Positions 10,953 to 50,932 of a stretch of 64,000 nt of DNA are shown piece by piece. The position numbers and the translations under genes are program-made. This DNA comes from the human T2T-CHM13v2.0 reference genome, Homo sapiens, in assembly GCF_009914755.1 (NCBI RefSeq), contig NC_060939.1; one strand, given 5' to 3'. Under the pieces are notes generated by a model. It was not told the origin of the DNA and did no database searches. It saw only the letters and a list, made by a program, of their open reading frames with translations. Position 1 is the stretch's first letter; each line of letters opens with the position of its first letter.

Positions 10953-10974
10953 GGAAAAATGGGATGGAAATTAT

Positions 10975-12318: not shown

Positions 12319-12929
12319 ACAGGTGTACAAATATTACCAACTATCTGCTAGCAACTTAGAAAACTGAGATAAATGGACATATCTCTAGTAAAATGTGACT
12401 TATAGTTAATTCATGAAGTAATAATAAAGCTTAATTAGTCCCATGGTTTTTAAAGAAACTAAATAGTGATTTAAAATTTTCTCACAAGAAAACTCCAGAC
12501 CTCGTCTACTTCAAAGTTGAGATCTACAAAAGCTTTAAAAATAAAAGGATTGTGGTCCAATTTATTCTGAGTTCAGCATAAGCTTGTTACCAAACCCAAA
12601 AATGTTATAGAAAGACAAAAAAACTGTAGAACCACACTTGTTAATAAATATAGATATGAAAATTCTAAATATAAAAATTTTAAATTAAGTCCAACTCTGG
12701 AGAAAAGATAATACAGCAAAACCAAATTGGATGTATCCTATATATTAAGAATTACTCAACATTAGAAAATTCACTAATGTGATTCTTTTAATATGTTACC
12801 GTTACTGTAATGTATTTTTTAATATGTTACCATGTTACCACACATTAACACTTAATATATTACCACAGTAAGATATTAAAAGAAAAAATCTGTAAACAAA
12901 TAAAGCATTTGATAACATTTAACATAATT

Positions 12930-13088
12930 TCTTTTTTAAAATAATTTCAATGTTTATTTTAGATATGAGGGTACGTGTAAGTTTTGTTACATGGGCATAT
13001 TGGGTTTGGAGTACAGATCCCATCACCCAGGTAATGAGCGTATTACCCACAGGTAGTTTATCAACCCTTACCCAACTCCTTCCCTCCT
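12930..13088 (-). mobile_element. L1PA15/16-like extreme 3' end
   Basis: TTATTTTAGATATGAGGGTACGTG...TTGTTACATGGG...GATCCCATCACCCAGGTAATGAGC. Confidence 0.7.
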
Positions 13089-15046
13089 TGATATGGTTTG
13101 GGTCTGTGTCCCCATCAAATTTCATGTCAAATTGTGGTCCCCAATGTTGGAGGTGGGGCCTGGTGGCAGGTGGTTCTATCCTATGAGTGGATTTCTTGTG
13201 AATGGTTTGGCACCATGGTCCTGGAGCTGTTCTCATGATAGTGAGTGAGTTCTCATGAGACTTGGTTGTTTAAAAGTGTGCAGCACCTACCCCTTAGTCT
13301 CTCTTGCTCCTGCTCCCATCATGTGAGGCACTTCACTCCCCTTTCAACTTTCACCAAGATTGGATGCTTCCTGAAGCCTCTCCCAAAGCAGAAGATGCTA
13401 TGCTTCCTGTACAGCCTGTGGAAACATGAGTCAATTAAGCCTCTTTTGTTTATAAATTACTCAGTCTCAGGTATTCCTTGGCAGCAGTGTGAGAACAAAC
13501 TGATACCAAAAAATAGTACTAGGAGTAGGATATTGATATAAAGATACCTAAAAATGTGGAAGCGGTTTTGGAATTGGGTAACAGGCACAGGCTGAAAGAA
13601 TATGAAGGTCTCAGAAGAAGGCAGGAAGATGAAGGAAAGTTTGGAACATCTTAGAGACTGGCTAAATGGTTCTGATCAAAATGCTGATAGAAATGTGCAC
13701 AGTGAAATCCAGGCTGAGAAGGTCTCATATGGAAATGAGGAACTTATTTGGAACTAGAAAAAGAGTCACTTTTGTTATGCCTTAGCAAAGAACTAGGCTG
13801 TATTGTGTTCCTGCCCTAGGGATATGTAGAACTTTAAAATTGAGAATGATGATTTAGGGTATCTGGCAGAATAAATTTATAAGCAGCAACATGTTCAAGA
13901 CGTGGACTGGCTGCTTCTAATAACCTATGTTCATATGCATGAGCAAATGGCATAAACTTGGAACTTATATTTAAAGGGAAAGCAGAATATAAAAGTTTGT
14001 AAAATTTGAAGAGTGGCCATGTGGTGAAAAAGAAAAGTCCATTTTCAGGGTAGGAATTCAAGCAGGCTGCAGAAATTTGCAAAAGTAAAAAGGAACCAAT
14101 TGCTAATAGCCAAGACAATAGGGAAAAGACCTCCAAGGCATTTCAGAGATTTTCAAGGCAGCCCCTTCCATCACAGGCTTGGAAGCCTAGGAGGACTGAA
14201 TAGTTTCATGGGCCAGGCCCTTTGTCCCACTGCCCTTCACAGCCTTTGGACACTGGTCCCTGCATCCCAGCCATTCCAGTTTTAGCCATGGCCCAAAGGA
14301 GCCCAAGTACAGTTCGGGTCACTGCTTCAAAGGGTGCAAGCCATAAGCCTTGGTGGCTTCCATGTGGTGTTAGGGCTGCAGGTACACAAAGTGCAAAAGT
14401 TGAGGCTTGGGAGCCTCTGACTAGATTTCAGAGGAGGTATGAAAAAGCCTAGAATCCCAGGCAGAAGTCTGCTGCAGGGGTGGAGCCCTCATGAAGAACC
14501 TCTACTAGGGCAATGTGGAGGGGAAATGTGGGGTTGGAGCCCTGACAGAGTCCCCACTGGGGTACTGCCTAGTGGAGCTGTGAGAAGAGGGTCACTGTCC
14601 TCAAGCCCCGAGAATGGTAGATCCACAAACAGCTTGCACCTTATGCCTGGAAAAGCTGCAGGCACTCAATGCCAGCACTTGAAAGCAGCCATGGGGTCTG
14701 AAACCTGCAAAGCCACAGGAGCAGAGCTGTCCGAGGCCTAAGAAGCCCACCTCTTGCATCAGTGTGCCCTAGATGTGTGACATGGAGTCAAAAGAGTTTA
14801 TTTTGAAGTTTAAGATTTAATTACTGCTCTGCTGAATTTCTGACTTGCACAGGGCCTCTAGCCCCTTTCTTTTGGCCAATTTCTCCCTTTTGGAATGAAA
14901 TTATTTACTCAATGCCTATACCCACATTCTTGAAAGTAACTAACTTGTTTATGATTTTCCAGGCTCATAGGGAGAAGGCACTACCCTTATCTCAGATGAG
15001 ACTTTGAACTTTGTAATTTTAAGTTAATGCTGAAAATAGTTATGAC
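13089..15046 (+). mobile_element. MSTA-like MaLR: 5' LTR (13089-~13507) plus internal region, 3' LTR absent
   Basis: TGATATGGTTTGGGTCTGTGTCCCC start and ATTAAGCCTCTTTTGTTTATAAATTAC near the LTR end. The internal region (AAAATGTGGAAGCGGTTTTGGAATTGGGTAACAGGC...) stops just before the PPT. Confidence 0.88.
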
Positions 15047-16125
15047 CTTTTTAACAATAGTGATTCTTCCTATCCATGAGCATAGAATATTTTTCTATTT
15101 ATTTGTGTTGTCTCTGATTTGTTTTTGCAGTATTTTATGTTTCTCCTTGTAGAGCTCTTTTACCTCCTTTGTTAGCTGTATTCCTATTTCCATTTTTTTG
15201 TGGCTATTGTAAATGAGATTAGGTTTTTGATTTGACTCTCAGCTTGAATATTGCTGAGGTATAGAAATACTGATTTTGGAACATTGATTTTGTATCTTAA
15301 AACTTTACTGAAGTTGTTTATCAGTCCTAGGAGCCTTTTGGCAGAGTATTCAGGGTTTTCTAGGTATAGAATTGTATCACCATCAAAGAGAGATAATTTT
15401 ATTTCTTCTTTTCTATTTGGATGTCTTTTGTTTCTTTCTCTTGGCTGATTGCTGTGGCTAGGACTTCAAGTACTACACTGAATAGGGGTGATGAGAGTGG
15501 GCATTCTTATCTTATTTAAGTTCTCAACAGGAATGGCTCCAGCTTTTGACCATTCCATAAGATGATGGGTTTGGGTTTGTCATAGATGGCTCTTACCATT
15601 TTGAGGTATGTTCCTTCACTGCCTAGTCTGTTGAGAATTTTTCATCATAAAGGGATATTGGATTGTACCAAAAGCTTTTTTCCATGTTCATTGGGATGAT
15701 CATATGGTTTTTGCTTTTAATTCTGTTTATATGGAAAATCACATTTACTGGTTGCATATGTTGAAACAGCCTTGCAGCCCAGGAATAATACTTGATCATG
15801 GTGTATGAACTTTTTGATGCGCTGCTGGATTCAGTTTGCTAGAATTTTGTTAAGAATTGTTCATCAGGGCTGTTTGCCTGAAGTGTGTGTATGTGTGTGT
15901 GTGTCTGTGTGTGTGTGTGTGTCTATTCCTGATTTTGGTGTCAGGCTGATGCTAGCTTCACAGAATGAGTTAGGAAGGAGTCCCTCCACTTCAATTTTTT
16001 GGAATAGTTCCAGTAGGATTGGTACCAGTTCTTTGTATATTTGATGGAATTCAGCTGTGAACCATCTAGTCCAGGGCTTTTTTTGGTTGGCAGGTTTTTT
16101 ATTACCAAGTAAATTTTTTATGACT
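15047..16125 (-). mobile_element. L1 (old L1PA/L1PB) ORF2 fragment with an internal (GT)n at ~15883-15922
   Basis: GATTCTTCCTATCCATGAGCATAG...GCTGCTGGATTCAGTTTGCTAG...GAGTTAGGAAGGAGTCCCTCC. Confidence 0.88.
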
Positions 16126-16134
16126 TCTTATTGG

Positions 16135-16603
16135 TATGGTTAGGATGGCTATTATTAAAAAGTCAAATAATAACAAATGTTGGCAAAGGCTACAGAGAAA
16201 AGTGAATGCTTATACACTGTTGGTGGGAATGTAAATTAGTTCAGCCATGGTGGAGAGTAGTTTGGAGATTTCTCAAAAAACTAAAAACAGCAAGTATTTA
16301 ACCCAGCAATCCCAATACTGGGTAATATACAAAAGAAAACATTGTTCTACCAAAAAGACACATATACTCCTACATTAATTGTGATGCTATTCATAATGGC
16401 TAAGACATGGAGTCAACCTAGGAGCCCCAAAATGGTGAACTGGATAAAGAACACATGGTGCATATACACCATGGAGCACTATGCAGCCACAAAAAAAGAA
16501 CAAAATATGTCTTTTGCAGCAACATGGATGCAGTTGGAGGCCATAATCCTAAGAGAATTAATATAGAAACAGAAAACCAAATACTGCATGTTCTCACTTA
16601 TAA
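16135..16603 (+). mobile_element. L1 ORF2 C-terminal fragment (sense)
   Basis: GGATGGCTATTATTAAAAAGTCA...CACTGTTGGTGGGAATGTAAATTAG. ORF 16342-16566 reads WCIYTMEHYAATKK..MSFAATWMQLEAIIL, the ORF2p C-terminus. Confidence 0.88.
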
Positions 16604-25230: not shown

Positions 25231-25530
25231 TCTGTATTTGTAGAAAAAATACAGTGTCTCAAATTTATATTAAAACTCATCTAGTTTATTCAGAGTGACA
25301 AATTTATTTTCATGGAATAAAATATTTAGAAAATACTTTTTTCTCAGATTGTTAAGGATTAAAAAAATAGCTTTCATGCATCCTGGATGATACTATTTGT
25401 TATACTTCAAGAAAATGAGGATGGCTACCAAAAAGGAAGGGATACAATCAAAAAAAACGGTGGAAACATCCCTAGAAGTTTTACTGTAAATAATGTGCAG
25501 AATCATAGCTGCCTGAAAACAGCAACTGGA

Positions 25531-25660
25531 AGCCAGACATGGTAACGCACCACTGTAGTCCTGCTACTCTGAAAGATGAAGTGGGAAGATCACTTGAGCC
25601 CAGGAGTTCTAGTCCAGCCTGGGCAACGTAGAGAGACCCCCATCTCAAATAAAAGAGAAA
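25531..25660 (+). mobile_element. FLAM (free left Alu monomer)
   Basis: AGCCAGACATGGT...GATCACTTGAGCCCAGGAGTTC..CCAGCCTGGGCAACGTAGAGAGACCCCATCTCAAA, a single monomer. Confidence 0.85.
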
Positions 25661-26425
25661 GCATCTGGCCAAAAATAAAAAAGGAAGTCCGTGGATTTCT
25701 GGGGAAAAAAAACCACACAGAATTAAGAAATACAAACAGTACCAAAATAGAAGTTATAAAGGAGAAGGTGAAGAAGAGGTAAAAAGATATCATGAAAGAA
25801 GGCATCTTTCAAAAAAAAAATTAAAAGGCAATTACTTAAAAATAATGAACTAGACTATGGGATAGTTATGAAGCACACCTTAAAATATCATAATTGTGAT
25901 CATGTTATTCAAAAGGAGTTTAAGCAAAGAGAATAAGTTCAACCTAGAAATTAGGGGCATTTGTCTTTGGAAGGGCATCATTATACTGAGTCAGTGGAAA
26001 AAAATGTGACTCTAGCACCTTTTGGTTCTGAAATGGACAGTATTTATATACTCATAATGTGTACTAAGTTTTCAAATTTTTCAATCAGCCTACAGACAAA
26101 CAAGAATGATTTAGATGTAGTCTGAAAGTGATTTATCTGTGTTTACTTGTGAAAGGAGACAGGAGTGAGGTTGTTGGAGAGGAACATAGAAAGGAAAGTC
26201 AGCAGCTTCCATATCCCATCTTATACAGAAGGGAACAAAAAGATGCCTTAGGAAATAATGAAACATGAAGTAGACTTTTAAGGATGTCATTTAAAATTAC
26301 AAAACAACAATGAAAGATCTAAAAATAGTGATTCAATGTATCTGTCGAAAGTTGTTGGGGTGGGGAAATGGGATATTTTACATAGGTTATATCTTCTTTT
26401 CTAGTACGAGTAAATTATTAATGTT

Positions 26426-28662
26426 GGATATGGTTTGGCTGGGTCTCCACCCAAATTTCCTCTTGAATTGTGGTTCCCATAATCCCCACGTGTTGTAGAA
26501 GGAGCCTGGTGGGAGGTAACTGAATCACAGTGGCAATTTCCCTCATGCTGTTCTCATAATAGCAAGTTCTCACGAGTTTTCATGATTTTATAAGGGACTT
26601 CCCCCTTTGCTCAGTTCTCATTCTTCTCTATTCTGCCACCATGTGAAAAAGGACATGTTTGCTCCCACTACGATTGTAGGTTTCCCAAGGCCATATTAAA
26701 CTGTGAGTCAGTTAAACCTCTTTCCTTTATAAATTACCCAGTTTTTATGGGTAATTTAATGGACAGTTCATTATAGCAGCATGAGAATGGACAAATATAG
26801 TAAACTGGTGCTGGTAGAGAGAGGTGTTGCTATAAAGATATCCAAAAATGTGGAAGCAACTTTGGAACTGGGTAGCAGGCAGAGGTTGCAAGAGTTTGGA
26901 GGGCTCAGAAGAATGTAGGAAGATGTGGGAAAGTTTGTAACTTCTTAGAGACTTGTTGAATGATGGCCTTGATCAAAAACAATGAAGTCTAGGCTGAGGT
27001 GGTCTCAGATGAAGATGAGGAATTTGCTGGGAACTGGAATAAAGGTGACTCTTGCTATATTTTAGCTAAGAGACTGGTGGCATGTTGCCCCTGCTCTAGA
27101 GATCTGTAGAACTTTGAATTTGAGAGAGATTATTTAGGCTATAAGGTGGAAGAAATTTCTAAGTGGCAAAGTGTTCAAGAGGTGGCACGGGTGCTCTTGA
27201 AAGCATTCAGTTTTATGCATTCATCACAAACATAGGTTTGAAATTGGAACTTATGTTTAAAAGGGAAGTGGAGCATGAAAGCTTAGAAATTTTGCAGCCT
27301 GACAATGTGATAGAAAAGAAAAACCCATTTTCTGGAAAGAAAGTCAAGCTGGCTTTAGAAATTTGCTTAAGTAACAGGGAGCCAAATGTCAGTCACCAAG
27401 AAAATGGGGAACGTCTCCAGGGCATGCCAGAGACCTTCAGAGTAGCTCTTCCCATCACAAGCCCCGCAGCCTAGGAGAGAAAAATGGTTTCCTGGGCAGG
27501 GCCCAGGGCACACCTGCTCTATGCAGACTCAGGACATGGTGCCCTGCACCCCAGCTGCTTTAGCTCCAGCAGTCACTGAAAGGGGGCAAGGTACAGCTCG
27601 GGCCATTGATTTAGAAGGTGCGAGCCCCAAGACTTGGTGGCTAACACCTGGGGCCGGGCTTGCAGGTACACAGAAGTCAAGAACTGAGGCAGGGGAACCT
27701 CCGCCTAGATTTTAGAGGATGTATGGAAACGCCTGCCAGGAAGAAGTTTGCTGCAGGGACAAAGCCCTCATGGAGAACCTCTGGTAAGACAATGCGGAAG
27801 GGAAATGTGGGGCTGGAGCCCCCAGGCAGAGTCCACACTGCGGCACCACCTAGAGGAGCTGTGAGAAGAGGGCTACTATCCTCCAGACACAAGAATGGTA
27901 GATTCACTGACAGCCTGCACCTTGCACCTGCAAAAGCCACAGACAATCAATGTCAGCCCATTCAAGCAGCTAGGAGAGGGGCTGAACCCTGTAAAGCCAA
28001 AGCAGCAGAGTTGCCCAAGGCCATAGGAGCCCAACTCTTGCATCAGCATGACTTGGCTGTCAGACATGGAGTCAAAGGAGATTATTTTCGAGCTTTAAGA
28101 TTTGACTACCTACTGGATTTCAGACCTGCATGGGGCCTGTAACCCCTTCGTTTTAACCAATTTCTCCCATTTGAAGTGGGTGTATTAGCCCAATGCCTGT
28201 ACCCCCATTGTATGTAGGAAGTAACTAACTTGCTTTTGATTTTTCAGGCTCATAGGTGAAAAAAACTTGCCTTGTCTGAGATGAGACCTTTACTTGGACT
28301 TTTGCGTTAATGCTGGAATGAGTTGAGACTTTGTGGGACTGTTGGAAAGGCATGATTGTTTTTTGAAATGTGAGGACATGAAATATGGGAGGAGCCAGCG
28401 GTGGAATTATATAATTTGGCTATATCCCCACTCAAATATCATCTTGAATTGTAGTTCCCATAATCCCTGTGTGTCATGGGAGGAACCTGGTGGGAGGTAA
28501 TAGAATGATGGGGGAAGTTTCCCCCATGCTATTCTCATGATAGAAAGTTCTCGTGAGATCTGATGGTTTTAAAAAGGGCTTCTCCCTTTGCTTGATTCTC
28601 ATTCTTCTCTCTCTTGCAGCCATGTGAAGAGGGACATGTTTCCTTCCCCTATGATTGCAAGT
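26426..28662 (+). mobile_element. THE1C/THE1D-like MaLR: 5' LTR 26426-26799, internal 26800-28406, 3' LTR 28407-28662 truncated
   Basis: GGATATGGTTTGGCTG start, LTR end GAGAATGGACAAATATA, THE1-int and PPT-like GGGAGGAGCCAGCGGTGGAA. The second LTR stops at ATGATTGCAAGT, before its poly(A) signal. Confidence 0.9.
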
Positions 28663-31331
28663 CTTTGGATTTTGGAGGCAACACATTCTTCATTTGGGCG
28701 AGTTACTCCAGGCAATTTATCAAGTGACTCAAAGGGCTGCCAGTTTTGAGTGGGGCCCAGAATAGGAGAAGGCTCTGCAACAGGTCCAGGCTGCTACACA
28801 AGCTGCTCTGCCACTTGGGCCATATGACCCAGCAGATCCAATGGTGCTCGAGGTGTCAGTGGCAGATAGAAATGCCGTTTGGAGCATTTGGCAGCCTCCC
28901 ATAGATGAATCATGATGAAGGCCTCTAGGATTTTGGAGCAGGCCCTGCCATCTTCTGCAGATAACTACTCTCCTTTTGAGAGACAGCTCTTGGCCTGTTA
29001 CCGGGCTTTGGTAGAAACTGAATGTTTGACTATGAGTCATCAAGTCACCATATGACCTGAACAGTCTATCATCAACTGGGTGCTTTCTGACCCATCTAGC
29101 CATAAAGTTGGGAGTGCACAGCAGAATTCCACCACCGAATGGAAGTGGTATATACATGATCAGGCTTGAGCAGGTCCTGAAGGCACAAGTAAGTTACATG
29201 AGGAAGTGGCTCAAATCCCCATGGTCCCCACTCCTGTCAGCCTGCCTTTTCTCCCCCAGGCTGCACCCATGGCCTCATGGGGAGTTCCCTATGATCTGTT
29301 GACAGAGAAGGAGAAAACTAGGGCTCGGTTTAGAGATGGCTTTGCACGATATTCAGGCACCACCCTGAAGTGGACAGCTGCAGCACTACAGCCCCTTTCT
29401 AGGACATCCCTGAAGTGCTGAAGTGGCAGAGGGAAATCTTCCCAGTAGGCAGAACTTCAAGCAGTGCACCTAGTTGTGCATTTTGCTTGGAAGAAGAAAT
29501 GACCAGATGTGTGATTATATACTGATTCATGGGCTGTAGCCAACGGTTTGGCTGGATGGTCAGGGACTTGGAAGAAGTATGATGGGAAAATTGATGACAA
29601 AGAAATTTAGGGAACAGGTATGTGGACGGACCTCTCTGAGTGGTCAAAAACTGTGTAGATATTTGTGTCCTATGTGAGTGCTCACCAATGGGTGACCTCA
29701 GAAAAGGAAGATTTTAATACTCAAGTGGACAGGATGATTCATTTTGTGGACACCACTCAGCCCCTTTCCCCAGCCACCCTTGCCATCACCCAATGGGCCC
29801 ATGAGCAAAGTGGCCATGGTGGCAGGAATGGAGGTTATGCATGGGCTAAGCAACATGGACTTCCACTCAGCAAGGCCGACTTGACTACAGGCACCACTGA
29901 GTGTCCAATTTGCCAGCAGCAGAGACCAACACTGATCCCTCCATATGGCACCATCCTCAGGGTTGATCAGCAAGTTACTTGGTGGCAGGTTGAATATATT
30001 GGACCTTTTCCATCATCGAAAGGGCAATGGTGTGTCCTTATCAAATAGACACTTAGTCTGGATATGGGTTTGCCCATCCTGCATGCAATGCTTCTGCCAA
30101 GACTACTATCCATGAACTCACAGAATGCCTTATCCACCATCATGGTATTCCGCACAGCATTGACTCTGCCAAAGGCACTCACTTTACAGCTAAAGAAGTA
30201 TGGCAGTAGGCTCATACTCATGGAATTCACTGGTCTTACTATGGTCCCTATCATCCTGAAGCAGCTGGATTGATAGAATGGTGGAATGGCCTTTTGAAGT
30301 CACAATTACAACGCCAACTAGGTGACAATACTTTGCAGGGCTGGGGCAAAGTTCTCCAGAAGGCTGTGTATGCTCTGAATCTGCGTCCAATATATGGTAC
30401 TGTTTCTCCCATAGCTAGGATTCACAGGTCCAGGAACAAAGGGGTTGAAGAGAAAGTGGCACCACTCACCATCACCCCTAGTGACCCACTAGCAAAATTC
30501 TTGCTTCTTGTTCCCATGACATTATGTTCTGCTGGCCTAGAGGTCTTAGTTCCAGAGGAAGGAGTGCTGTCACCAGGAGACACAACAATGATCCATCAAA
30601 CTGGAAGTTAAGATTGCCACCTGGCCACTTTGGGCTTCTCTTACTTCTAAATCAACAGGCTAAGAAGGAAGTTACAGTGTTGTCTGGGGTGATTGACCCA
30701 GACCATCAAGATGAACTCAGTCTACCACTCCACAATTGAGGTAAGGAAGGGTATGTGTGGAATACGGGAGATCCCTTAGGGCATCTCTTAGTATTACCAT
30801 ACCCTGTGATTAAGGTATACAGGAAACTACAACAACCCAATTCAAGCAGGACTACAAATTGCCCAGACCTGCAGGCATGAAGATTTGCATCACTCCACCA
30901 GGTAAAAATCAAGATTTGCTGAGGTGCTTGCTGAAGGCAAAGGGAATACAGAATGAGTAGCAGAAGAAGGTAGTCATCAATACTAGCTACCACCATGTGA
31001 TCAGTTGCAGAAACAGGGACTGTAATTGTTGTATTTGGATTTCCTCCTTATTTTCTTAATATGTTTGTGCAGGTATACACTTGTATTAAGAAATGATTTC
31101 CATTTTATTTATTTTCTTTTTCCTTTATCATGTGACATAAGATTTGTTGACTTCACAACAGCATTTAAGTGTTGTTAACTTCATGTATTAGCATTTATGT
31201 TAAGAAATAGTACAGCTGTACAAAGGATAGCTGTATTATGTTAGGCATAATTATGATGTTATTATTCTTTATTTGAAGATTATGTATGATTTCAGGAGAT
31301 ATGTATGGGCTCAAGTTGACAAGGGTGGATT
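28663..31331 (+). pseudogene. HERV-L internal 3' half: degenerate pol (RT connection, RNase H, integrase) and dUTPase, no env
   Basis: ORF pieces WGVPYDLLTEKEKTRARFRDGFARY (RNase H entry), WAHEQSGHGG...CPICQQQRP (integrase HHCC), WWQVEYIGP, IEWWNGLLKSQL (integrase core) and WKLRLPPGHFGLL..VTVLSGVIDPD (dUTPase after IN, the ERV-L order). Many stops and frameshifts. Confidence 0.92.
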
Positions 31332-31880
31332 TGTGATGGTTAATATTGAGTGTCAAGCTGATTGGATTGAAGGATGCAAAGTATTGTTACTGGGTGTGTC
31401 TGTGAGGGTTTTGCCAAAGGAGATTAACATATGAGTCAGTTGACTGAGAGAGGTAGACTCACCCTCAATCTGGGTGGGCACCATCTAATCAGCTGTCAGT
31501 ATGGCCAGAATAAAGCAGGTAGAAGAATGTGGAAGGACTTGACTTGCTGAGTCTTCTGGTCTTTGTCTTTCTCCTGTGATAGATGCTTCCTGTTTTTGAA
31601 TATTGGACTCCAAGTTCTTCAGCTTTTGGACTCATAGACTTACAGCAGTGGTTTTCCAGAGACTCTCAGGCCTTTGGCCATAGATTGAGGGCTGTGCTTT
31701 CAGTTTCCCTACTTTTGAGGTTTTGGGACTTGGACTGGCTTCTTTGCTCCTCAGCTTGTAGATGGTCTATTGCAGAACTTCACCTTGTGATCATTTGAGT
31801 AAACACTCCTTAATAAATTCCTCTTTATATATATATCTATCCTATTAATTCTGTCTTACTAGAGAACCCTGACTAATACA
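31332..31880 (+). mobile_element. MLT2A (HERV-L) 3' LTR
   Basis: TGTGATGGTTAATATTGAGTGTCAA..TGATTGGATTGAAGGATGCAAAG start, AATAAA at 31812, end AGAGAACCCTGACTAATACA. Confidence 0.92.
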
Positions 31881-31981
31881 ATGTTAAAAACTGGCAAGCC
31901 AAATATTTCTGTGACTACCCATTGGAGTTATGAAGTGTAGCAAATGAAGAATTAAGAACAGGAAATAATAAAAATGGCTGC

Positions 31982-34600
31982 TGATACGGTTTGACTGTGT
32001 CCCCAGCCAAATCTCATCTTGAATTGTAACTCCCACAATTCCCATGTGTCATGGGAGGAACCCAGTGGGAGGTCATTAAATTATGGGGGCAGGTCTTTGC
32101 TGCATTGTTCTTGTGATAGGGAATTAGTCTCATAAGATGTGATGGTTTTAAAAATGGGAGTTTCCCTGCACAAGCTCTCTCTTTGCCTGCTGCCATCCAT
32201 GTAAGATGTGACTTGCTTCTTCATGCGTTCCACCATGATTGTGAGGCCTCCCCAGCCATGTGAAACTGTAAGTCCATTAAACCTCTTTGTTTTATAAATT
32301 GCCCAGTCTCGGATATGTCTTTATCAACAGTATGAAAATGAACCAATACAGTAAATTGGTACCGGGGTGGGGCACTGCTGAAAAGATACAAAAAATATGG
32401 AAATGACTTTGGAACTGGGTAACAGGCAGAGGTTGGAACGGTTTGGAGAGCTCAGAAGAAGACAGGAAAATGTGGGAAAGTTTGGAACTCCCTAGAGACT
32501 TGTTGAATTGTTTAGACCAAAATGCTGATAATTATATGGACAATGAAATCCAGGCTGAGGTGGTCTCAGCTGGAGATGAGGAACTTGTTGGGAACTGGAG
32601 TAAAGGTGACATTTGTTATGTTTTAGCAGAGACTGGTGGCATTTTGCCCCTGCCCTAGAGATCTGTAAAACTTTGAACTTGAAAGAAATGATTTAGGGTA
32701 TCTGATGGAAGAAATTTCTAAGCAGTTAAGCATTCACGATATGACTTAGGTGCTCTTAAAGGCATTCAGTTTTTTTCTTTTTGTTTTGTTTTGTTTGTTT
32801 GCTTTTTGAGACAGAGTTTTGCTCTGTTGCCCAGGCTGGAGTGCAGTGGTGTAATCTTGGCTCACTGCAGCCTCTGCCTCCTGGGTTCCAGTGATTCTCC
32901 TCCCTCAGCCTCCTGAGTAGCTGGGACTACAGGCACACACCACCACACCCGGCTAGTTTTTGTATTTTTAGTAGAGACAGGGTTTCACCACGTTGGCAGG
33001 GATAGTCTCGATTTTCCGACTTTGTGATCTGCCTGCCTCAGCCTCCCAAAGTGCTGGGATTACAGGCATGAGCCACTGTGCCCAGACAAAGGCATTCAGT
33101 TTTAAAAGGGAAACAGAGCATAAAAGTTTGGGAAACTTGCATCCTGACAATATGATAGGAAAAAAAATCCCATTTTCCGAGGAGAAATTCAAGCCAGCTG
33201 CAGAAATTTGCATAAGTAATGAGGAACCTAATATTAATCACCAAGACAATGGGGAAAATGTTTCCAGGGCATGTCAGAGACCCTTGTAGCAGTCCCTTCC
33301 ACAGAGGGCCAGAGGTTTAGAAGGAAAAATTGGTTTTGTGGGCCAGGCCCAGGGTCCCTCTGTTTTGTGCCGTCTAAGGACTTGGTGCCCTGCATCCCAG
33401 TCGCTCCAGCTGTGACTAAAAGGGACCAAGTCAGAGGCTCAAGCTGTTGTTTCAAAGGGTGGAAGCCCCAAGCCTTAGCAGCTTCCATTTAGTGTTGAAC
33501 TTGCAGGTGCACAGAAGTCAAGAATTGAGGTCTGGGAATCTCTGCTTCGATTTCAGAAGGTTTATGAAAATGTCTGGATGCCCAGGCAGAAGTGTGCTGC
33601 AGGGACAGAGCCCTCATGGAGAACCTTTCCTAGGGCAGTGCAAAAGGGAAATGTGGGGTTGGAGCCCCCATACAGAGTCCCTAATGAGGTACCACCTAGT
33701 GGAGCTGTGAAAAGAGGGCCACCATCCTCCAGACCCCAGAATGGTAGATCCACTGACAGCTTGCACCATGTGTTTCACTCAACACCAGCCCATGAAAGCA
33801 GCCAGGAGGGAGGCTGTACCCTGCAGTGCCACAGGGGCAGAGCTGCCCATGACCATGGGATCCCACCTCTTGCATCAGCATGACATGGATGTGAGGCATA
33901 GAGTCAGAGACGATCATTTTGGAGCTTTAAGACTTGGCTGCCCTTCTGGATTTCAGACTTTCATAGGGCCTGTAGCCCCTTTGTTTTGGCCCATTTCTCC
34001 CACTGGGAACGGCTGTATTTACCCAATGCCTGTACTCCCATTGTATCTATGAAGTAACTAGCTTCCTTTTGATTTTACAGGCTCATAGGTGGAAGGGACT
34101 TGCCTTGTCTCAGATGAGACATTGGACTGTAGACTTTTGAATTAATGCTGAAATGAGTTAAGACTTTGGGGGACTTTTGGGAAGACATGATTGGTTTTGA
34201 AATATGAGGACATAAGATTTGGGCAGGGCCAGGGGTGGAATGATATGGTTTGGCTGTGTTCCCCACCCCCGAAATCTCATCTTGAATTCACATGTGTTGT
34301 GGGAGGGACCTGGTGGGAGGTGATTGAATCATGGGGCCTAGTCTTTCCCATGCTGTTTATGTGATAGTGAATAGGTCTCATGTGATCTGATGATTTTATA
34401 AAGAGGAGTTCCCCTGTACAAGCTCTCTCTCTTTGCCTGTTGACATCCATGTAAGACGTGACTTGCTCTTCCTTGCCTTCTGCCATGATTGTGAGGTCTC
34501 TCCAGCCATGTGGAACTGTAAGTCCATTAAACTTCTGTCTTTTATAAACTGTCCAGTCTCGTGTATGTCTTTATCAGAAGCACGAAAATGGACTAGTACA
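31982..34600 (+). mobile_element. Full-length THE1A/B-like MaLR (LTRs 31982-32350 and 34241-34600)
   Basis: TGATACGG...CCAATACA, internal region, then TGATATGG...ACTAGTACA. Perfect 5-bp TSD GCTGC at 31977-31981 and 34601-34605. Confidence 0.94.
32774..33087 (-). mobile_element. Alu SINE, AluSc-like, nested in THE1-int
   Basis: Antisense dimer. 16-bp TSD AAAGGCATTCAGTTTT at 32758-32773 and 33088-33103. Confidence 0.93.
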
Positions 34601-35221
34601 GCTGCCTTAGGAAAGGAGGACTCTGGGTAGGATAAATTACTTTTGAAGAGTATAATTCCTTCCATTTTAGTTGGTATTTTTTTCTACCAGGTTTATATTT
34701 TATAGCTGTAGTAGTGTGTATATGTATGATAATTATGAAATTTGTATCCAGATAATGATCTTTTAAGACTTTTTTTCCAAGAACAACAAATCTACAGATA
34801 GGGACAATTCTTTGAAATCTAAAAAATATCTAGATTATCTTGAAGACAATCTTCAGGCAAAAAATCTACACTGTCATGCAGCTTTCTAAAACTTATGCAG
34901 TTATCCTTATAAAATTGATTTTCTCATTGATATTTTGGTTTCATTTACGCAACTTCATTCAAAGCATCTGAAAATTTATTCAATGAAGCTTACCATACTG
35001 AATACAGTGTTGAATATATCTTGCCCCATAACACTTTGAGATATATGACCTAAATTAGGTGAGTCTTCTTAAAGGAAATATAAGGGCTGGTATATTTTGC
35101 TTCTCTTGAGGAACTGACAGCATATTTCTTAGGAAAAACCAAACGCAACTCATTTAGACAAGTGATTTCCAGACTTAACTGACCATGAGATTCATCTGAT
35201 GTAAAAAGCACACACATATTG

Positions 35222-35575: not shown

Positions 35576-37446
35576 CTGTCTCCTGAAGAGTTTGATTGAG
35601 TTGGTCCATGTAGAAACCCAGGAATCTCATTACTTAAGTCCTCCTAGAAATTCTGAGGCATATTCAGGTTGAGAGCTGTTAACTCTGCTGATCTTGTTTC
35701 TTTTTTCCTGGCCAATATGGAACTTGGGACAAAATTAACTCTGCTGCTTTAATACATATTTATGACTCCACAAGCCCTGTGTTGTTTCCCCTTGACCTCG
35801 CTCTTTTAGTTTCACTTGGATACATTCTGCTCTTGATTTCAGAAAAAATAAAGAGATAAATAATTGCATAAAATTTATGAACTTTCTAAACAGGTGGCTT
35901 GTATGCAATTTGTTTTAATTACTTCTGAATTTTTTTTTTAAATGTACTCTATTAAGTTCCTGTCTGAGATGCAGGGACTTAGTAGCTGATCTTACATGTT
36001 TCAACAGGACTGTAAAGAAGACCTATGTTGTGGATATGGCATGTTGGCTATATCCCCAAGGACAGCAGTCTTTGAGAGTGAGTTCATTCACCAAGAAATA
36101 TATTTGTGTTGTGTACACCTTGCAAAGAACAAAAACCTTAATAACATGGAAGAGAGGTAGAGTTCTCCTGACAGGATATTCAGTGAGAATTGCATTGAGG
36201 GTAAGAGCGCTTAGAGTCTTATGGTTAGTACGTTGCTAAGATGCTCTGAGTGGAGGGAAAAACTTAAGTTTTGGACTTTTCTGTGGTATCTGCGGTATTT
36301 TGGACAATTTTTTAAAATGCAGGTGTTGAGAGGTTACATGTCATGAAATTCTCACTTTGGAGGACTCTCAAAAGCCAGGTACCAAAAAATTCAGGAAGTG
36401 ACTGGAAGGAGTTACGTCCCCTAAGGCTAGCCCTGGCTTCAGAATTCTTCCTCCCTTGATCTTCAAACACAAGCTCCTTCTAATTAGCATGTTTACAAGA
36501 CATAAGGAAGAACAGAACTGGTTATCAAGAATTCACCTTGATGTAGGATTATCTAACCCACAAGGGTGGCTGGTGTTTTTTTGTTGTTTTGTTTTTTGTT
36601 TTCTATCTTAAAAGGCATTGGAAGTAGGAGGTAAGATGGGGGTGGCTAGGACATTTTCAAGTCCTGAAAGAAGCTGTGTGGCAAGTCAACTGGGGCAATG
36701 CGAGCTATTCTGGAATCACCAATCTTCAACTGGACATCAGAGGATGGCTACTGAATTTGAATGATGACTCAAGTCTTCTGCAGTCCATTAGCTATAAGAC
36801 CCTCAGGCAGGTGTCTTCTGAAATATGAAGAGAAAATTAAGCATGAAAAGTTTGTTGCATGTCTTGTTTGTGTTATAACTCAGCTTGAGACAAAGTGAGT
36901 TTTGTGGAGTCTTACCCTCTCTTCCCTAGTGAGCTTGGAATTGGATATTAAAGGAAAAAACAAAGAGATATTTGTCTTAGAGCTTAGAGCACTGAACAAA
37001 ACAGAGTGTGTGTGGGGGGGCAGTTAACTCTTTTGTGCTTCAAGGTAGCTGTTGCTATGCATTTTATATACACATACATGCTCATAGAAAGCAGCAAAAA
37101 CATAATATTCATAATAAAGTGTATGGGGAAATTGACTTTATGTATATATTGTACCCAGTAGTATAGTTAGAAAAAAAAAAATAACGAGTTCATGTTTTGG
37201 CCACTTCAATAAGAAATGCTTTCTTTCTATGTAGCTCAAGGTAACAAGATCCAGATGAAAAGAAATGACACCACTCAGAGCAAAATAGCATTTATTTCTC
37301 ACTGTCTCTAGTAATGTGTGAGGGAGGAAGCAGGGGGCCTCTTTCTGACCAAATTATATAATTACTGAAAGTGTCAATGGTAGAGGAATTCTGGAGAGCC
37401 TTATGCATTTAGGAATATTTCTAAAAATTCTAATTTAAAAAAATAG

Positions 37447-37510
37447 GAAGAAGAAGAAGAAGAAGAAGAAGAAGAAGAAGAAGAAGAAGAAGAAGAAGAA
37501 AAAGAAGAAG
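37447..37510 (+). repeat. (GAA)18 microsatellite followed by AAA(GAA)2
   Basis: Uninterrupted GAA from 37447 to 37500. Confidence 0.97.
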
Positions 37511-37833
37511 CAGCAGAAATTGTGAAACAAATAAGCTGTTATATCACCAAAATCCCTCCCCTCACCTCCACTTTTTTCATACACACCCAAATGAGAAAAA
37601 AGTAATTTAAAGTATCCTCTAATGTTTGACATACTAAAAGCTAAGAAACTCCAAGATAATTTAGATAAATCAAATATTTTCTTCCTTTCATTTCCCAGAT
37701 CTGTGATTTATAAGCAAGACCTATGTGCTTTATCCATTGTGAACCCTCCTCATCCTCATTCAATCTTGGAGACCAGCATTTTCAGAAACAAATAATCCTT
37801 AAAAAAATAAGAAGCCAGAGAGGGATGAGTAAG

Positions 37834-42604: not shown

Positions 42605-43505
42605 TTAAATAGATCTTTTATTGAAGTAAAACATATACAAAGAAAGTGCATAAATATAAACATATAGTTTGATGATATTTTACAAATAAACTTGCATATA
42701 CACCATTCAGAAGGTATCAAACTTCGTTTCTCAGAGTGTGATTCATTTACCAGTAGCCTTGGCATTGCCTAGGAGCTTGTTAAAAATGCAGAATCTTAGC
42801 TCCCACCCAGACCTATTGAATCAGAATCTGCATTTCAAAAAGATCTCGAAGGAGATCTATATGTAGACTGAATTTTGAGAAGTACAGATATAGAACATGA
42901 CCAACTCTCTAGAAATCTCCTTTATTAATCTACTCTGGTCATTACCTCTTCAAAAGTAGCCACTTTTTGATTAACCATGCCTTAGTTTTGCTATGTTATT
43001 GAACTTTCTATAAAAGGATTCATGTTATCTACTTTCTGCAGGTCTGGCTTCTTGTACTCAGTATTATGTTTAGAGATTCTTCCATGCTATTGCATGCAGA
43101 AGTTTGTTCTTCTTTTATTATTTTTAATTGCTGCATGAACATACCATGTTTCATCTATTTCACTGTTGGTAGATACTGGGATTCGTTCATTCAGGGACTG
43201 CTATGAATAATGCCGGTAGCATCATGGCCCTTAGAAGACATACTGATGTATTTCTATTGAGTAAACTTTTAAGATTAGAATTGTAAGGTCACAGATATGC
43301 ATGCATGTGTTCAGTCACAGTAGATAATGACAAAGAGTCTCCAAAGTAGTTGTACACATTTACAGTCCCACCATTGGAGTATGAAAATTATAGTTGTCCT
43401 AAACCATAACTAATAACTGACATTGTCAGACGTTGTTTGGCCAGCTAGATGTGTAGTTGACTAAGCCATTCTGGTGGTCGTATAGTGATATCACACAGTG
43501 ATTTT
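42605..43505 (-). mobile_element. L1ME/MB-like 3' end, with a continuation at ~50740-50900 and ~51385-51515
   Basis: CTTTTATTGAAGTAAAACATATACA...GTCTGGCTTCTTGTACTCAG...TCTCCAAAGTAGTTGTAC. Confidence 0.65.
42722..42888. mobile_element. MER5A-like DNA transposon
   Basis: TTTCTCAGAGTGTG...GGAGCTTGTTAAAAATGCAGAATCTTAG..CCCAGACCTATTGAATCAGAATCTGCATTT...TTTGAGAAG. Confidence 0.82.
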
Positions 43506-44371
43506 ATTTATTCCTTTATATATGGATAGAAATCATTGTGTGTACTTAGCATGTCCATGATGTTTTGAAGTACATATACATTATGGAATGGTTAAATGTA
43601 GTTAATTAACAAATGCCGTATCTCCTATAGTTATCAGTTTTATGGTGAGAGCACTTATCCACTCTTTGCATTTTTTATGAATACAACATATCACAATTAA
43701 CTATAGTCACCTTGCTATACAATAGATCCCTTAAATTTATTTTTATCTATCTCACTGAAATTACACATCTTTTAACCAATATCTACCCATAACCTTTCTC
43801 CTAACCACCCCAGGCTCTGGTAACCAGCATTCTACTTCTCTCTACTTCTATTACATTAAGTTTTTTTAGATTCCACAGATGAATGAGATTACATGTTATT
43901 GATCTTTCTGTGCCTTACTAATTTTAAGTAACATAATGCCCTATAGGTTCATCCATGTTGTTAATAGAAAATGACAGAATTTCCTTTTTTTGTGTGGCTG
44001 AATAGTATTGCATTGTGTATATATACCATATTTCATTATTCATTTATCCATTGATTCCATTTCTTGGCAATTGTTAATACTCCTGCAATAAACATTAGAG
44101 TGAAGACATCTTTTTATAGATAATTTTTAAAATAAGTCCTCAAAAGCATAGCCAAGAAAAGCAAAAATAGACAAATGAAATTGCATCAAACAAAAAAGAC
44201 TCTGCACAGCAAAAGAAAGTCAACAGAGAAAATAGACAATCTACATAATGATATGAAATATCTGCATATTTCTTATACATTGTATATATGTGATAAAGAG
44301 TTAATATCCAAATTATATTTAAAAACTCAATAGCAAGAAAAGCCTGGGATTAAAAATGGGGACAAGACCTG

Positions 44372-45312
44372 AACAGAATGGGAGAAAATTTTTGCAATCT
44401 ATCCATCTGACAAAGGGCTAATATCCAGAATCTACGAAGAACTTAAAGAAATTTACAAGAAAAAAACAAACAACCCTATCAGAAAGTGGGCGAAGGATAT
44501 GAAGAGACAGTTCTCAAAAGAAGACATTATGCAGCCCACAAACATATGGGAAAAAGCTCATCATCACTGGTCATTATAGAAATGAAAATCAAAACCACAA
44601 CAAGTTACCATCTCAGGCCAGTTAGAATGGTGATCATTAAAAAGTCAGGAAACAACAGATGGTGGAGAGGATGTGTAGAAATAGGAACGCTTTTACCCTG
44701 TTGGTTGGAGTGTAAATTAGTTCAACCATTGTGGAAGACAGTGTGGTGATTCCTCAAGGATCTAGAACCAGAAATACCATTTGACCCAGCAATCCCATTA
44801 CTGGGTATATACCCAAAGGATTATAAATCATTCTACTATAAAGTCACATGTACACTTATGTTTATTGTGGCACTGTTCACAATAGCAAAGACTTGGAACC
44901 AACCCAAATGTCCATAAATGATAGACTGGATAAAGAAAATGTGGCACATACACACCATGGAATACTATGCAGCCAAAAAATCATGAATTTCTGTCCTTTG
45001 TAGGGACATGGATGAAGCTGGAAACCATCATTCTTAGCAAACTAACACAGGAACAGAAAACCAAACAGCACATGTTCTCACTCATAAGTGGGAGTTGAGC
45101 AATGAGAACACATGGACACAGGGAGGGGAACATTACACACCCGGGCCTGTTGAGGGGTGGGGGCTAGGGGAGGGATAGCATTAGGAGAAATACATAATGT
45201 AAATGATGGATTGATGGGTGCAGCAAACCACCATGGCACATGTATACCTATGTAACAAACCTGCCTGTTCTGCACATGTATCCCAGAACGTAATGTATAA
45301 TAATAAAAAAAA
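44372..45312 (+). mobile_element. 5'-truncated L1PA (L1PA7/8-like)
   Basis: GAATGGGAGAAAATTTTTGCAATCTATCCATCTGACAAAGGGC through the 3' UTR GGGAGGGATAGCATTAGGAG...GCACATGTATCCCAGAAC and an A tail. Confidence 0.92.
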
Positions 45313-46675
45313 TTACCGCCCAGATCAAAGTCATAAACCTTTCCCACTAAGTTTTCTTCTACTTCTATTAGATCAAGTTTTTTAGATTCCACAGATGAAT
45401 GAGATTGCATTTTTTTCTAGTAGTTTCATAGTTTCAGGTCTTAGATTTATTCCTTTAATATGTTTTGAGTTGATTTTTGTATATGCTGACAGATAACAGT
45501 CTACTTTCATTATTTTGCATGTGAATATCCATTTATCAACACTATTTATAGAATAGTCTGCCCTTTCCCCATTTTGTGTTCTTGGTGCCTGCATCAAAAA
45601 TCAGTTAGCTGTAAATTTGTGGATTTATTTCTTAGCTCTCTATTTTGTTTCATTGGTGTATGTCTTTGTTTTTATGCCAGTACCATATTGTTTTGGTTAC
45701 TATAATTTTGTAGTGTATTTTAAAGTCAAATCATGTAATGCCTCCAGCTTTGTTCTTTTGGTTCAGGATTGCTTTGACTGCTTGGGGTCTTTTGTGGTTC
45801 CATACAAATTTTATTATTTTTTTTTCTATTTCCGAGAAGAATGTCATTGGTATTTTGATAATGATTGCATTGAATCTGTAGATTGCTTTAGGTATTATAT
45901 ACATTTTAACAATAGTAATTATTCCAATCAATGAACATAGGATATTGTTCTATTTATTTGTGTCTTTTTACATTTATTTTATAAGTGTTGTATAGCTTTC
46001 AGTGTAGATTTCTCTCACACCTTTGGTTAACTGCATTCCTACGTATTTTATTTTTACAGCTATTGTAAATGGAATTGTTTCATTGATTTCTTTTACAGAT
46101 AGTTTGCTATTAGTGTATAGAAACACGAGTGATTTTTTATGTTGATTTTGTGTCCTGCACTTGTACTGGATTTGTGTATTAGTTTTAATAGTTTTTTGAT
46201 GTAGTCTTTTGAGTTTTCTGTATAAAAGATCTTGTCATCTGCAACCAGGGACAATTTAACTTCTTGTTTTTCAATATGGATGTCTTTAACTTTTTTTTTT
46301 GCTTGATTACTGTTGCCAGGGCTTCTAGTAGTATGTTAAATGGAAGTTGTGAAAGTGAATTTGTTTGCCTTGTTCTAAATCTTAGAGGAAAAGTGTTCAG
46401 CTTTTCCCTGTTCAAGATAATGTTAGCTGTGAGTTTGTCATATATGGCCTTTATTATACTGAGATACATCTCTTTTATACTTAACGTGTTTCAAGTTTTT
46501 AACCATAAAATGATGTGGAATTTTGTTAAATGTTTTTTCTGCATCTATTGAAATGATTATGTGGCTTTTGTCCTTGTTTTTGTTAATGTGATGTATCCTG
46601 TTTATTCAATTGCCTATGTTATACCATCTTTGCATCCTAGAGATGAATCCCAGTTTATGATGGGGAAGGATTTCC

Positions 46676-46970
46676 TTTTTTTTTTTTTTGGCGGGCGGGG
46701 GGGACGGAGTCTTGCTCTGTCACTAGGTTGGAGTGCAGTGGCATGCTTACTGCAAACTTCACCTCCCGGTTTCAAGTGATTCTCCTGCCTCAGCCTCCCG
46801 AGCAGCTTCGACTACAGGTGCTCCATTACACCGAGCTAATTTTTGTATTTTTAGTAGAGATAGGGCTTCACCATGTTGGCCAGGATGGTCTTGATCTCTT
46901 GATCTCGTGATCCACCTGCCTTGGCCTCCCAAAGTGCTGGGATTACAGGTGTGAGCCACCGTGCCCGACC
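46676..46970 (-). mobile_element. Alu SINE, AluSc-like
   Basis: CTGTCACTAGG, GGCCAGGATGGTCTTGATCTCTTGA, CCCAAAGTGCTGGGATTACAGG. Confidence 0.9.
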
Positions 46971-50800: not shown

Positions 50801-50932
50801 TTGTCATTTGAATATCCTCTTCTGTGAAATGACTGTTTAAGTCTCTTGCCCAATTATTAAATTAGGTTAGTCTATCTTTTTCTTTTCAATTTTTAGAAAA
50901 TTTTTCTAAAGTGTAATTTAGACAATTTATCA

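What the first reader, a model, noticed from the sequence alone, without database searches (positions are those of the whole stretch)
26421..31885. THE1/HERV-L chimeric provirus with two different LTRs inside one 5-bp target-site duplication
Seen: ATGTT (26421-26425), THE1 5' LTR, THE1 internal, a THE1 3' LTR cut at ~28662, HERV-L pol/IN/dUTPase, a complete MLT2A LTR, then ATGTT (31881-31885). There is no HERV-L 5' half and no THE1 LTR remainder nearby. The two flanks appear to read on collinearly as one old L1 3' UTR, which I judged by eye. Established: ERV-L and MaLR make 5-bp TSDs (the neighbouring intact elements show GCTGC and AACCC). MaLRs lack pol and are thought to be mobilised in trans by ERV-L. 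Inference: the 5.45-kb unit integrated in one event, either by a reverse-transcriptase template switch between co-packaged HERV-L and THE1 RNAs or by concerted integration of two different cDNA ends. That would be a direct fossil of the helper/parasite relationship. Caveats: the first LTR base reads G rather than T, and a 5-mer match can arise by chance.
Basis: partly seen in the sequence, partly recalled or inferred. Interest (0 to 1): 0.82.

Follow-up and report, generated by a model that had tools for sequence, protein, structure and literature searches.

The report
THE1-like/HERV-L chimera sharing one target duplication
An old non-coding retroelement (THE1 type) is fused head-to-tail to the back half of its presumed helper virus HERV-L, and the pair is bracketed by one matching 5-base duplication, so the two may have entered the genome together, but this cannot be proven without other primate genomes.

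Summary
The anatomy is real. ATGTT (26421-26425) is followed by a complete THE1-type LTR, an internal region, the first 256 nt of the 3' LTR, and then, from 28664, HERV-L pol (RNase H, integrase, dUTPase). A 549-bp MLT2 LTR ends at 31880 and ATGTT follows again.

The junction is unique. 0 of 38 other HERV-L copies share it, and no second copy of the unit was found in the genome. Two random 5-mers from this window match with P about 0.0016. Both intact neighbouring MaLRs keep perfect 5-bp duplications.

The claim that the flanks are one collinear old L1 3' UTR is not supported by any test I could run. The decisive test, an empty or intermediate site in other primates, is not possible with these tools.

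An internal template switch alone gives two identical LTRs. I propose a route that fits, because the break lies in the presumed R region.

My reading:
- One aberrant integration of a chimeric cDNA: about 0.45.
- Two neighbouring insertions, one deletion and a chance 5-mer match: about 0.33.
- HERV-L DNA captured at a break in an existing THE1 LTR: about 0.15.

This is a moderately interesting single fossil that is cheap to test.

The parts
26421..26425 (+). Left copy of the putative 5-bp target-site duplication, ATGTT
   Evidence: Read. Frequency of ATGTT in the window is 0.0023.
26426..26799 (+). THE1-type (MaLR) 5' LTR, 374 nt. It starts GGATATGG (neighbours start TGATA(T/C)GG) and ends ...GGACAAATATA. 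A TATA-like TTTTATAAGGG lies at LTR 161-171 and ATTAAA at LTR 270-275.
   Evidence: The motif positions were read.
26800..28406 (+). MaLR internal region. No Pfam family was found. A PBS-like GTAAACTGGTGCTGG follows the LTR, and a purine tract ...GGTGGAA lies before the 3' LTR.
   Evidence: no family in 3 frames. (73-79% identity to three other MaLR internals in the window). (75-81% identity to genomic copies). (PBS-like motif).
28407..28662 (+). First 256 nt of the MaLR 3' LTR. It is cut 14 nt before the ATTAAA position, so the last ~118 nt of the LTR are missing.
   Evidence: 77-78% identity to 26426-26681, register 1981.
28662..28666 (+). Junction T-C-TTT. The THE1 LTR would continue TTCCC, while HERV-L copies read ...GGCCTA|TTTGG. 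This leaves 1-3 nt of T microhomology and one base (C, 28663) of unclear origin.
   Evidence: 0 of 38 other HERV-L copies carry the THE1 sequence upstream..
28664..31331 (+). HERV-L internal region, 3' part only, with many stops and frameshifts. RNase H is at about 29419-29733, integrase core at about 30045-30257 and dUTPase at about 30599-30826.
   Evidence: Pfam, stops as X. (82-86% identity to 39 genomic HERV-L copies from query 2239 onward).
31332..31880 (+). Complete MLT2-type 3' LTR, 549 nt, TGTGATGG...CTGACTAATACA. It carries an ~85-nt stretch (31635-31719) that most other copies lack.
   Evidence: The length is close to the 554-nt 'aba' MLT2 subfamily of PMC11319637 (passages read); that assignment is inference.
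31881..31885 (+). Right copy of the putative target-site duplication, ATGTT
   Evidence: Read. The LTR end was fixed by 20 other copies.

Best explanation
The 5.45-kb unit is the product of one integrase-mediated insertion of a chimeric DNA made from a THE1-type RNA and a HERV-L RNA inside one particle.

Proposed route (inferred, not shown):
1. Minus-strand DNA synthesis started normally on HERV-L RNA. It copied the HERV-L 3' LTR, dUTPase, integrase and RNase H.
2. In pol, at a short T run, synthesis jumped to the R region near the 3' end of a co-packaged THE1 RNA.
3. It then copied THE1 back to the RNA's 5' end.
4. The new 3' end of the minus strand (R of THE1) paired with the R part of the plus strand primed at the THE1 polypurine tract. 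It was extended over U3, which rebuilt a full THE1 5' LTR.

The finished DNA has a THE1 U3 end on the left and a HERV-L U5 end on the right. Both ends resemble each other in their terminal bases, so one ERV-L integrase could join them to a 5-bp staggered cut at ATGTT.

A variant with the same outcome is that two separate cDNAs in one pre-integration complex were joined end to end while their outer ends were integrated together.
For: Shown:
- Both outer ends are exact LTR termini flanked by the same 5-mer. The chance of a match is 0.0016-0.0023.
- 5 bp is the duplication length of both intact MaLR neighbours, 2 of 2 perfect.
- The junction is unique: 0 of 38 HERV-L copies share it, and no second locus does.
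- The two THE1 LTR copies share subfamily-specific stretches that the neighbour lacks. The MaLR half is therefore one element that is complete apart from the last ~118 nt.
- The termini are alike. MaLRs read TGATATGG.../...GGACT(A/T)ATACA, and the MLT2 LTR reads TGTGATGG.../...TGACTAATACA.
- The same PBS-like TTGGTACC motif sits 4-5 nt after the LTR in 3 of 3 HERV-L 5' LTR junctions seen and in 2 of 3 window MaLRs. In this element it is degraded.
- The break (LTR position 256) lies between a mapped THE1B transcript start and ATTAAA at LTR 270-275. The transcript start is the 5' RACE clone in Dataset S1 of PMC3836709, read, which I placed by eye at about LTR position 135. This puts the break in the presumed R region, as the route requires.

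From papers (passages read):
- THE1/MSTA/MSTB are simian-specific (PMC10735291).
- Most of the reclassified MLT2A2/MLT2B3-group LTRs (MLT2A2, MLT2B3, aba and their sub-groups) entered between the tarsier split and the simian ancestor (PMC11319637). If this LTR belongs to them, which is inferred only from its length, the two families overlapped in time.
- Chimeric LTR-flanked insertions made by microsimilarity template switching are documented (PMC5131818).
Against: - It is a single locus, and a 5-mer match is the only positive evidence that it was one event.
- The first LTR base is G, not T. Shifting the LTR start by one base breaks the match.
- Flank contiguity could not be shown.
- The window is rich in MaLRs: four in 64 kb, one of them only 96 nt downstream. 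That makes two independent insertions close together more likely than average.
- The LTR pair of this element (K2P 0.28) is more diverged than the neighbour's (0.21). The HERV-L half cannot be dated on its own, so equal age of the two halves is untested.
- 1-3 nt of microhomology fits end joining as well as template switching.
- The U3/R/U5 borders of THE1 are inferred, not measured on this copy.
Confidence: 0.45

Rival explanations
1. Two independent insertions and one deletion. A THE1-type element and a HERV-L provirus integrated separately, in the same orientation, a short distance apart. A later deletion with ends in the THE1 3' LTR and in HERV-L pol removed the rest of the LTR, the spacer, and the HERV-L 5' LTR, gag and front of pol. 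The surviving outer duplication copies, one from each element, are both ATGTT by coincidence.
For: - Deletions with 1-3 nt of microhomology are ordinary, and the junction has just that.
- The region is crowded with same-strand MaLRs: 13.1-15.0 kb, 26.4-28.7 kb and 32.0-34.6 kb on the + strand.
- ATGTT is a common 5-mer here, rank 54 of 1014.
- A whole-genome scan by many readers will meet such coincidences occasionally.
- No test could show that the flanks were once contiguous.
Against: - It needs a coincidence of about 0.002, or about 0.004 if the one-base ambiguity of the LTR start is allowed.
- It also needs both outer LTR ends to have stayed exact while the inner parts were lost.
Confidence: 0.33
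2. Capture at a break. A complete THE1-type element with its own ATGTT duplication was already in place. A double-strand break in its 3' LTR was then repaired by taking up a 5'-truncated HERV-L cDNA, or by copying an ectopic HERV-L. The left join was made by end joining at the T run. The right join was made by annealing of the ~10-nt terminus GACTAATACA that THE1 and MLT2 LTRs share, so the original THE1 right-hand duplication was kept.
For: - The last ~10 nt of MaLR and MLT2 LTRs are nearly the same in the copies read, so such a right-hand join would leave no trace.
- It explains the matching duplication, the loss of THE1 LTR positions 257-~364, and two different LTRs without any special reverse-transcription step.
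- Capture of retroelement cDNA at breaks is known from yeast (recalled from memory; not checked in a call).
Against: - It needs a break in just this LTR while HERV-L DNA was available.
- It needs the use of a very short homology exactly at the cDNA end.
- No HERV-L copy stands out as a donor: the best 39 are all 82-86% identical.
Confidence: 0.15
3. HERV-L integrated by its own integrase inside or next to the THE1 3' LTR, and two later deletions trimmed both sides to the present state.
For: Nested insertions of LTR elements are common. Mosaic chains through secondary integration are described in PMC4724089 (passages read).
Against: - It needs two deletions.
- One of them must end exactly at the MLT2 LTR terminus and exactly before ATGTT.
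- No remainder of the THE1 LTR follows the MLT2 LTR.
Confidence: 0.04

Closest known systems
LTR-mediated chimeric retrocopies made by microsimilarity-dependent template switching (Tan et al. 2016, PMC5131818; abstract and passages read)
   Same: A chimeric DNA is made in one particle from two co-packaged RNAs, has short similarity at the fusion point, is flanked by LTR sequence on both sides, and is inserted by integrase. Their filter even allowed a non-autonomous element paired with its helper (ORR1/MaLR with MERVL) as the two flanks.
   Different: There the captured RNA is a host mRNA, and two switches return to the same element, so both LTRs are of one kind. Here the partner is the presumed parasite of the helper, only one switch is seen, and the two LTRs differ. 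I could not see their Supplemental Table 8, which may list helper/parasite-flanked cases.
Mosaic or recombinant HERV proviruses (Vargiu et al. 2016, PMC4724089; abstract, passages and part of the supplements searched)
   Same: Proviral chains are built from two families, and MaLR pieces are often found in other HERV chains. Recombination and secondary integration are named as sources.
   Different: Those MaLR pieces sit mostly on class I or II backbones, are often antisense, and many were judged software artefacts. No THE1/HERV-L unit inside one duplication is described in the text I read. [quoted passage not shown]
Hybrid MLT2 LTR subfamily 'aba' (PMC11319637; passages read)
   Same: It shows that ERV-L lineage elements recombined. 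The 554-nt length is close to the 549-nt LTR here.
   Different: That is a hybrid within the LTR that went on to multiply more than 2000 times. The unit here is a hybrid between whole elements and has no second copy.
ETn/MusD and VL30/MLV helper-parasite recombinants in mouse (recalled from memory; not checked in any call)
   Same: A non-autonomous LTR element and its helper exchange sequence through co-packaging.
   Different: Those recombinants keep matching LTRs and can spread. No such recombinant is known to me for THE1 and HERV-L.

Membership tests
MaLR, THE1/MST type (left half) | Paired LTRs of about 350-375 nt, starting TGATATGG and ending ...AATACA | tested here: met
   The 5' LTR is 26426-26799. 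The 3' copy 28407-28662 is 77-78% identical. The ends were read. The first base is G, not T, and the 3' copy is incomplete.
MaLR, THE1/MST type (left half) | Short non-coding internal region similar to other MaLR internals, with no pol | tested here: met
   No Pfam family in 3 frames. 73-79% identity to 3 MaLR internals in the window and 75-81% to genomic copies.
MaLR, THE1/MST type (left half) | Assignment to a named subfamily (THE1A-D, MSTA...) by match to its consensus | not testable with these tools
   No Dfam or Repbase library is available, and I built no consensus. The low identity to the best copies and K2P 0.28 suggest an older member.
HERV-L (right half) | pol with RNase H, then integrase, then dUTPase after integrase | tested here: met
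   RNase_H E 8.5e-10 and rve E 1.7e-5. dUTPase E 0.0086. The last two are below Pfam's curated cut-offs, and the frame is broken many times.
HERV-L (right half) | DNA similarity to HERV-L proviruses and an MLT2 LTR with TG...CA ends | tested here: met
   39 copies at 82-86% identity from 28664 to the LTR. The LTR start and end are in register with 14 and 20 other copies.
Single-event chimeric integrant (one integration) | Identical target-site duplication of the family's length at the two outer LTR ends | tested here: met
   ATGTT on both sides. Chance is 0.0016-0.0023. 5 bp is the length in 2 of 2 neighbours.
Single-event chimeric integrant (one integration) | Flanks contiguous before insertion (empty site with one copy of the 5-mer) | not testable with these tools
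   No primate or outgroup genomes are available. The proxy, one old repeat spanning the site, found no support.
Single-event chimeric integrant (one integration) | The same chimera in every species that has anything at the site, with no intermediate | not testable with these tools
   No other primate genome is held.
Single-event chimeric integrant (one integration) | A junction compatible with template switching (short similarity; break inside a region present in the RNA) | tested here: inconclusive
   1-3 nt of T microhomology. The break at LTR position 256 lies between a THE1B RACE start, mapped by eye to about position 135, and ATTAAA at 270-275. This is equally compatible with end joining.

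The most novel reading that the evidence does not exclude
This locus is a physical fossil of a THE1-type RNA and a HERV-L RNA reverse-transcribed in the same particle and integrated as one DNA by one integrase, using a THE1 end on one side and a HERV-L end on the other. It would be the first direct evidence that primate MaLRs rode in ERV-L particles. It would also be a natural example of a provirus with two unlike LTRs inside one target duplication.
Probability: 0.45. Interest if true: 0.72.

Novelty: new variant of a known kind. Interest (0 to 1): 0.55.

Why it matters
That MaLRs, about 4% of the human genome according to PMC10735291, were moved by ERV-L proteins is widely stated. It rests on indirect signs: similar LTR ends, a similar primer site and overlapping activity.

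A unit made of both partners inside one duplication would show that their nucleic acids met in one reverse-transcription and integration complex. It would also show that the ERV-L integrase accepted a mixed pair of ends.

The claim can be settled quickly with existing primate assemblies. A genome-wide search for more such units could turn one anecdote into a rate. If the orthologs instead show two steps, the locus is an ordinary rearrangement.

Tried and rejected
- **Sibling copies:**
  - A 221-nt junction query gave 40 scored of 1509 candidates, and only the window itself crosses the junction.
  - The whole unit gave 40 scored of 26238 candidates, with only self covering both halves.
  - The 26-nt junction pattern with up to 3 mismatches gave one extra hit, on contig 2. 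It shares only those 25 nt and no THE1 or HERV-L sequence, so it is a chance match.
  - A sibling about 20% diverged could escape all three searches.
- **L1 flanks:** all of the following were negative:
  - genome search of both flanks;
  - Pfam six-frame scan;
  - tblastn with two natural L1 ORF2s;
  - nhmmer and relaxed blastn;
  - Smith-Waterman with shuffles, where the best result was z 4.7 for 26262-26349 against an L1 at 43959-43871, on mononucleotide shuffles only and not seen by nhmmer;
  - tblastn and tblastx against a tiny flank database.
  - The family PF08333, which I recalled as an L1 domain, is not in the Pfam copy.
- **Subfamily and age:** I built no consensus of either element, so subfamily names and divergence from a consensus are not given.
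- **THE1 transcript borders:** PMC3836709 and PMC12963367 gave no coordinates in the passages returned for my search terms. I used only the RACE clone in Dataset S1, placed by eye.
- **Prior description in print:** six searches of the open-access library returned no paper on a THE1/HERV-L unit within one duplication. Subscription papers and several supplements were not visible.
- **Rejected reading, plain internal minus-strand template switch:** it yields identical LTRs.
- **Rejected reading, re-transposed chimeric transcript:** it would give hybrid but identical LTRs.
Full report
**What is there.** The window is human chr15 (T2T). Reading 26000-32400 gives this order:
- ...TTATTA-ATGTT (26421-25);
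- an LTR that begins GGATATGGTTTGG at 26426;
- a non-coding internal region;
- a second copy of the LTR start at 28407;
- an abrupt change at 28662-28664 to sequence that continues for 2.7 kb;
- a 549-nt LTR (TGTGATGG...CTGACTAATACA) that ends at 31880;
- ATGTT again (31881-85).

The repeat finder pairs 26428-26681 with 28409-28662 at 78% over 254 ungapped nt, with spacing 1981. A MAFFT alignment gives 77% identity over 256 nt and K2P 0.28. The 5' LTR runs to 26799 (374 nt; its end was fixed). The 3' copy therefore holds LTR positions 1-256 and lacks the last ~118 nt. The two copies share stretches that the neighbouring MaLR lacks, so they belong to one element.

**Identity of the halves.**
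- The left half matches three other MaLR elements in the window and many genomic copies at 75-81%. It has no Pfam family.
- The right half matches 39 genomic HERV-L copies at 82-86%, all starting at query 2239, which is window position 28664.
- With stops read as X it carries, in this order, RNase H (E 8.5e-10), integrase core (E 1.7e-5) and dUTPase (E 0.0086). The last two are below Pfam's cut-offs.
- The LTR start and end are in register with 14 and 20 other copies, whose flanks differ.
- Most copies lack window 31635-31719. The 549-nt length is close to the 554-nt 'aba' MLT2 subfamily (PMC11319637, passages read). This assignment is an inference.
- Subfamily names could not be tested without a repeat library, and I built no consensus.

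**The junction.** Thirty-eight other HERV-L copies read ...CCTAGTGGGCCTA|TTTGGATTTTGG. Here the upstream part is replaced by ...GATTGCAAGT-C, so 0 of 38 share the junction. The THE1 LTR would have continued TTCCC. That leaves 1-3 nt of T microhomology and one base of unclear origin.

No other locus crosses the junction. The only extra pattern hit, on contig 2, is a chance 25-mer. A sibling about 20% diverged could have been missed.

**Is the duplication more than chance?** Two random 5-mers of this window match with P = 0.0016, and ATGTT has frequency 0.0023. Allowing the one-base ambiguity at the LTR start (G instead of T) roughly doubles this. Both intact MaLR neighbours keep perfect 5-bp duplications:
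- GCTGC at 31977-81 and 34601-05;
- AACCC at 60359-63 and 61994-98.

A true duplication of this age can therefore well be intact.

**The flank claim.** I found no support:
- Each flank hits only itself in the genome.
- There are no L1 domains in 6.4 kb to the left and 5.4 kb to the right.
- Natural L1 ORF2 queries find L1 remnants at 9.4-16.6, 43-48 and 50.8 kb, plus one E 0.97 hit near 39.2 kb, but none in 16.6-39 kb.
- nhmmer, relaxed blastn, shuffled Smith-Waterman, tblastn and tblastx against the window's L1 3' ends give nothing significant or consistent.

The flanks may still be a very old repeat below detection. Contiguity is simply untested.

**Mechanism.** In the standard reverse-transcription scheme both LTRs of a product are copied from the same U3 and the same R-U5. 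An internal template switch therefore cannot by itself give a THE1 LTR on one side and an MLT2 LTR on the other (established knowledge plus inference). A route that does give the observed order needs one non-homologous switch:
1. The minus strand started on HERV-L RNA jumps from pol into R near the 3' end of a co-packaged THE1 RNA.
2. It runs to that RNA's 5' end.
3. Its R end then pairs with the R part of the plus strand primed at the THE1 polypurine tract. It is extended over U3, which rebuilds a complete THE1 5' LTR.
4. The right end remains the normal HERV-L U5 end.

This requires the break to lie inside THE1 R. The break is at LTR position 256. A THE1B-HEY1 5' RACE clone (Dataset S1 of PMC3836709, read) begins, by my eye alignment, at about LTR position 135. 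ATTAAA lies at 270-275. The break is therefore in the presumed R region.

Joining of two finished cDNAs in one complex would give the same picture.

Both ends look like substrates of one integrase:
- MaLR and MLT2 LTRs share TG(T)GATGG... at one end and ...GAC(T)AATACA at the other.
- Both carry a TTGGTACC primer-site-like motif just inside the 5' LTR. It is seen in 3 of 3 HERV-L junctions and in 2 of 3 window MaLRs, and is degraded in this one.

Papers place THE1/MSTA/MSTB in simians only (PMC10735291). They place most insertions of the reclassified MLT2A2/MLT2B3-group LTRs between the tarsier split and the simian ancestor (PMC11319637). The families therefore probably overlapped, given that this LTR's place in that group is inferred only from its length.

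**Rivals.**
- (a) Two separate insertions followed by one deletion, with a chance 5-mer match. This is ordinary apart from the roughly 0.002-0.004 coincidence, and the MaLR-rich neighbourhood favours it.
- (b) A complete THE1 was already present. A break in its 3' LTR captured a truncated HERV-L DNA, and the right join was made through the shared ~10-nt terminus. This keeps the THE1 duplication and is invisible in the sequence.
- (c) A nested integration followed by two exact deletions, which is unlikely.

I put one chimeric integration at about 0.45, (a) at 0.33, (b) at 0.15 and (c) at 0.04. These odds rest on rough priors and are inference.

**What is known.**
- Chimeric LTR-flanked insertions made by template switching are described (PMC5131818).
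- Mosaic HERVs are common (PMC4724089).
- Six literature searches gave no description of a THE1/HERV-L unit inside one duplication.
- Subscription papers and key supplementary tables were not visible.

**Verdict.** It is a new variant of a known kind if true, and a simple ortholog comparison would decide it.

Noticed in passing
window 31982-34600 (+), duplications at 31977-31981 and 34601-34605: A second, complete MaLR (LTR pair 82% identical, K2P 0.21) lies only 96 nt downstream of the chimera, with a perfect GCTGC duplication. With the elements at 13.1-15.0 kb and 60.36-61.99 kb, the window holds four MaLRs in 64 kb.
   Followed up: partly
window 60364-61993 (-), duplications at 60359-60363 and 61994-61998: A short minus-strand MaLR (about 1.6 kb) has a perfect AACCC duplication, read as GGGTT on its own strand.
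   Followed up: partly
window 31635-31719: An ~85-nt stretch of the MLT2 LTR is absent from most of the 39 best HERV-L copies. It is present in one (L018, contig 5). The LTR may belong to the longer 'aba' type described in 2024.
   Followed up: partly
L004:1158, L031:568, L034:1381; window 26800-26820, 32351-32375, about 61600 (-): HERV-L and the MaLRs carry the same TTGGTACC... primer-binding-like motif 4-5 nt after the 5' LTR. This fits use of the same tRNA primer.
   Followed up: partly
window 9466-16602, 43338-48364, 50742-50858: L1 ORF2 remnants of several ages lie on both strands. One is interrupted by the MaLR at 13.1-15.0 kb.
   Followed up: no
window about 25520-25650: By eye, a short Alu-like fragment followed by an A-rich tract lies in the left flank. 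It was not tested.
   Followed up: no
window about 37430-37520 and nearby: A purine-rich simple repeat translates as runs of E/K/R. A CA/TG dinucleotide run lies a few hundred bases further on. Both were seen in the translations.
   Followed up: no
G000 contig 2, 13326688-13326713 (L055): A 26-mer matches the junction string with 3 mismatches in otherwise unrelated sequence. It is a chance match.
   Followed up: yes
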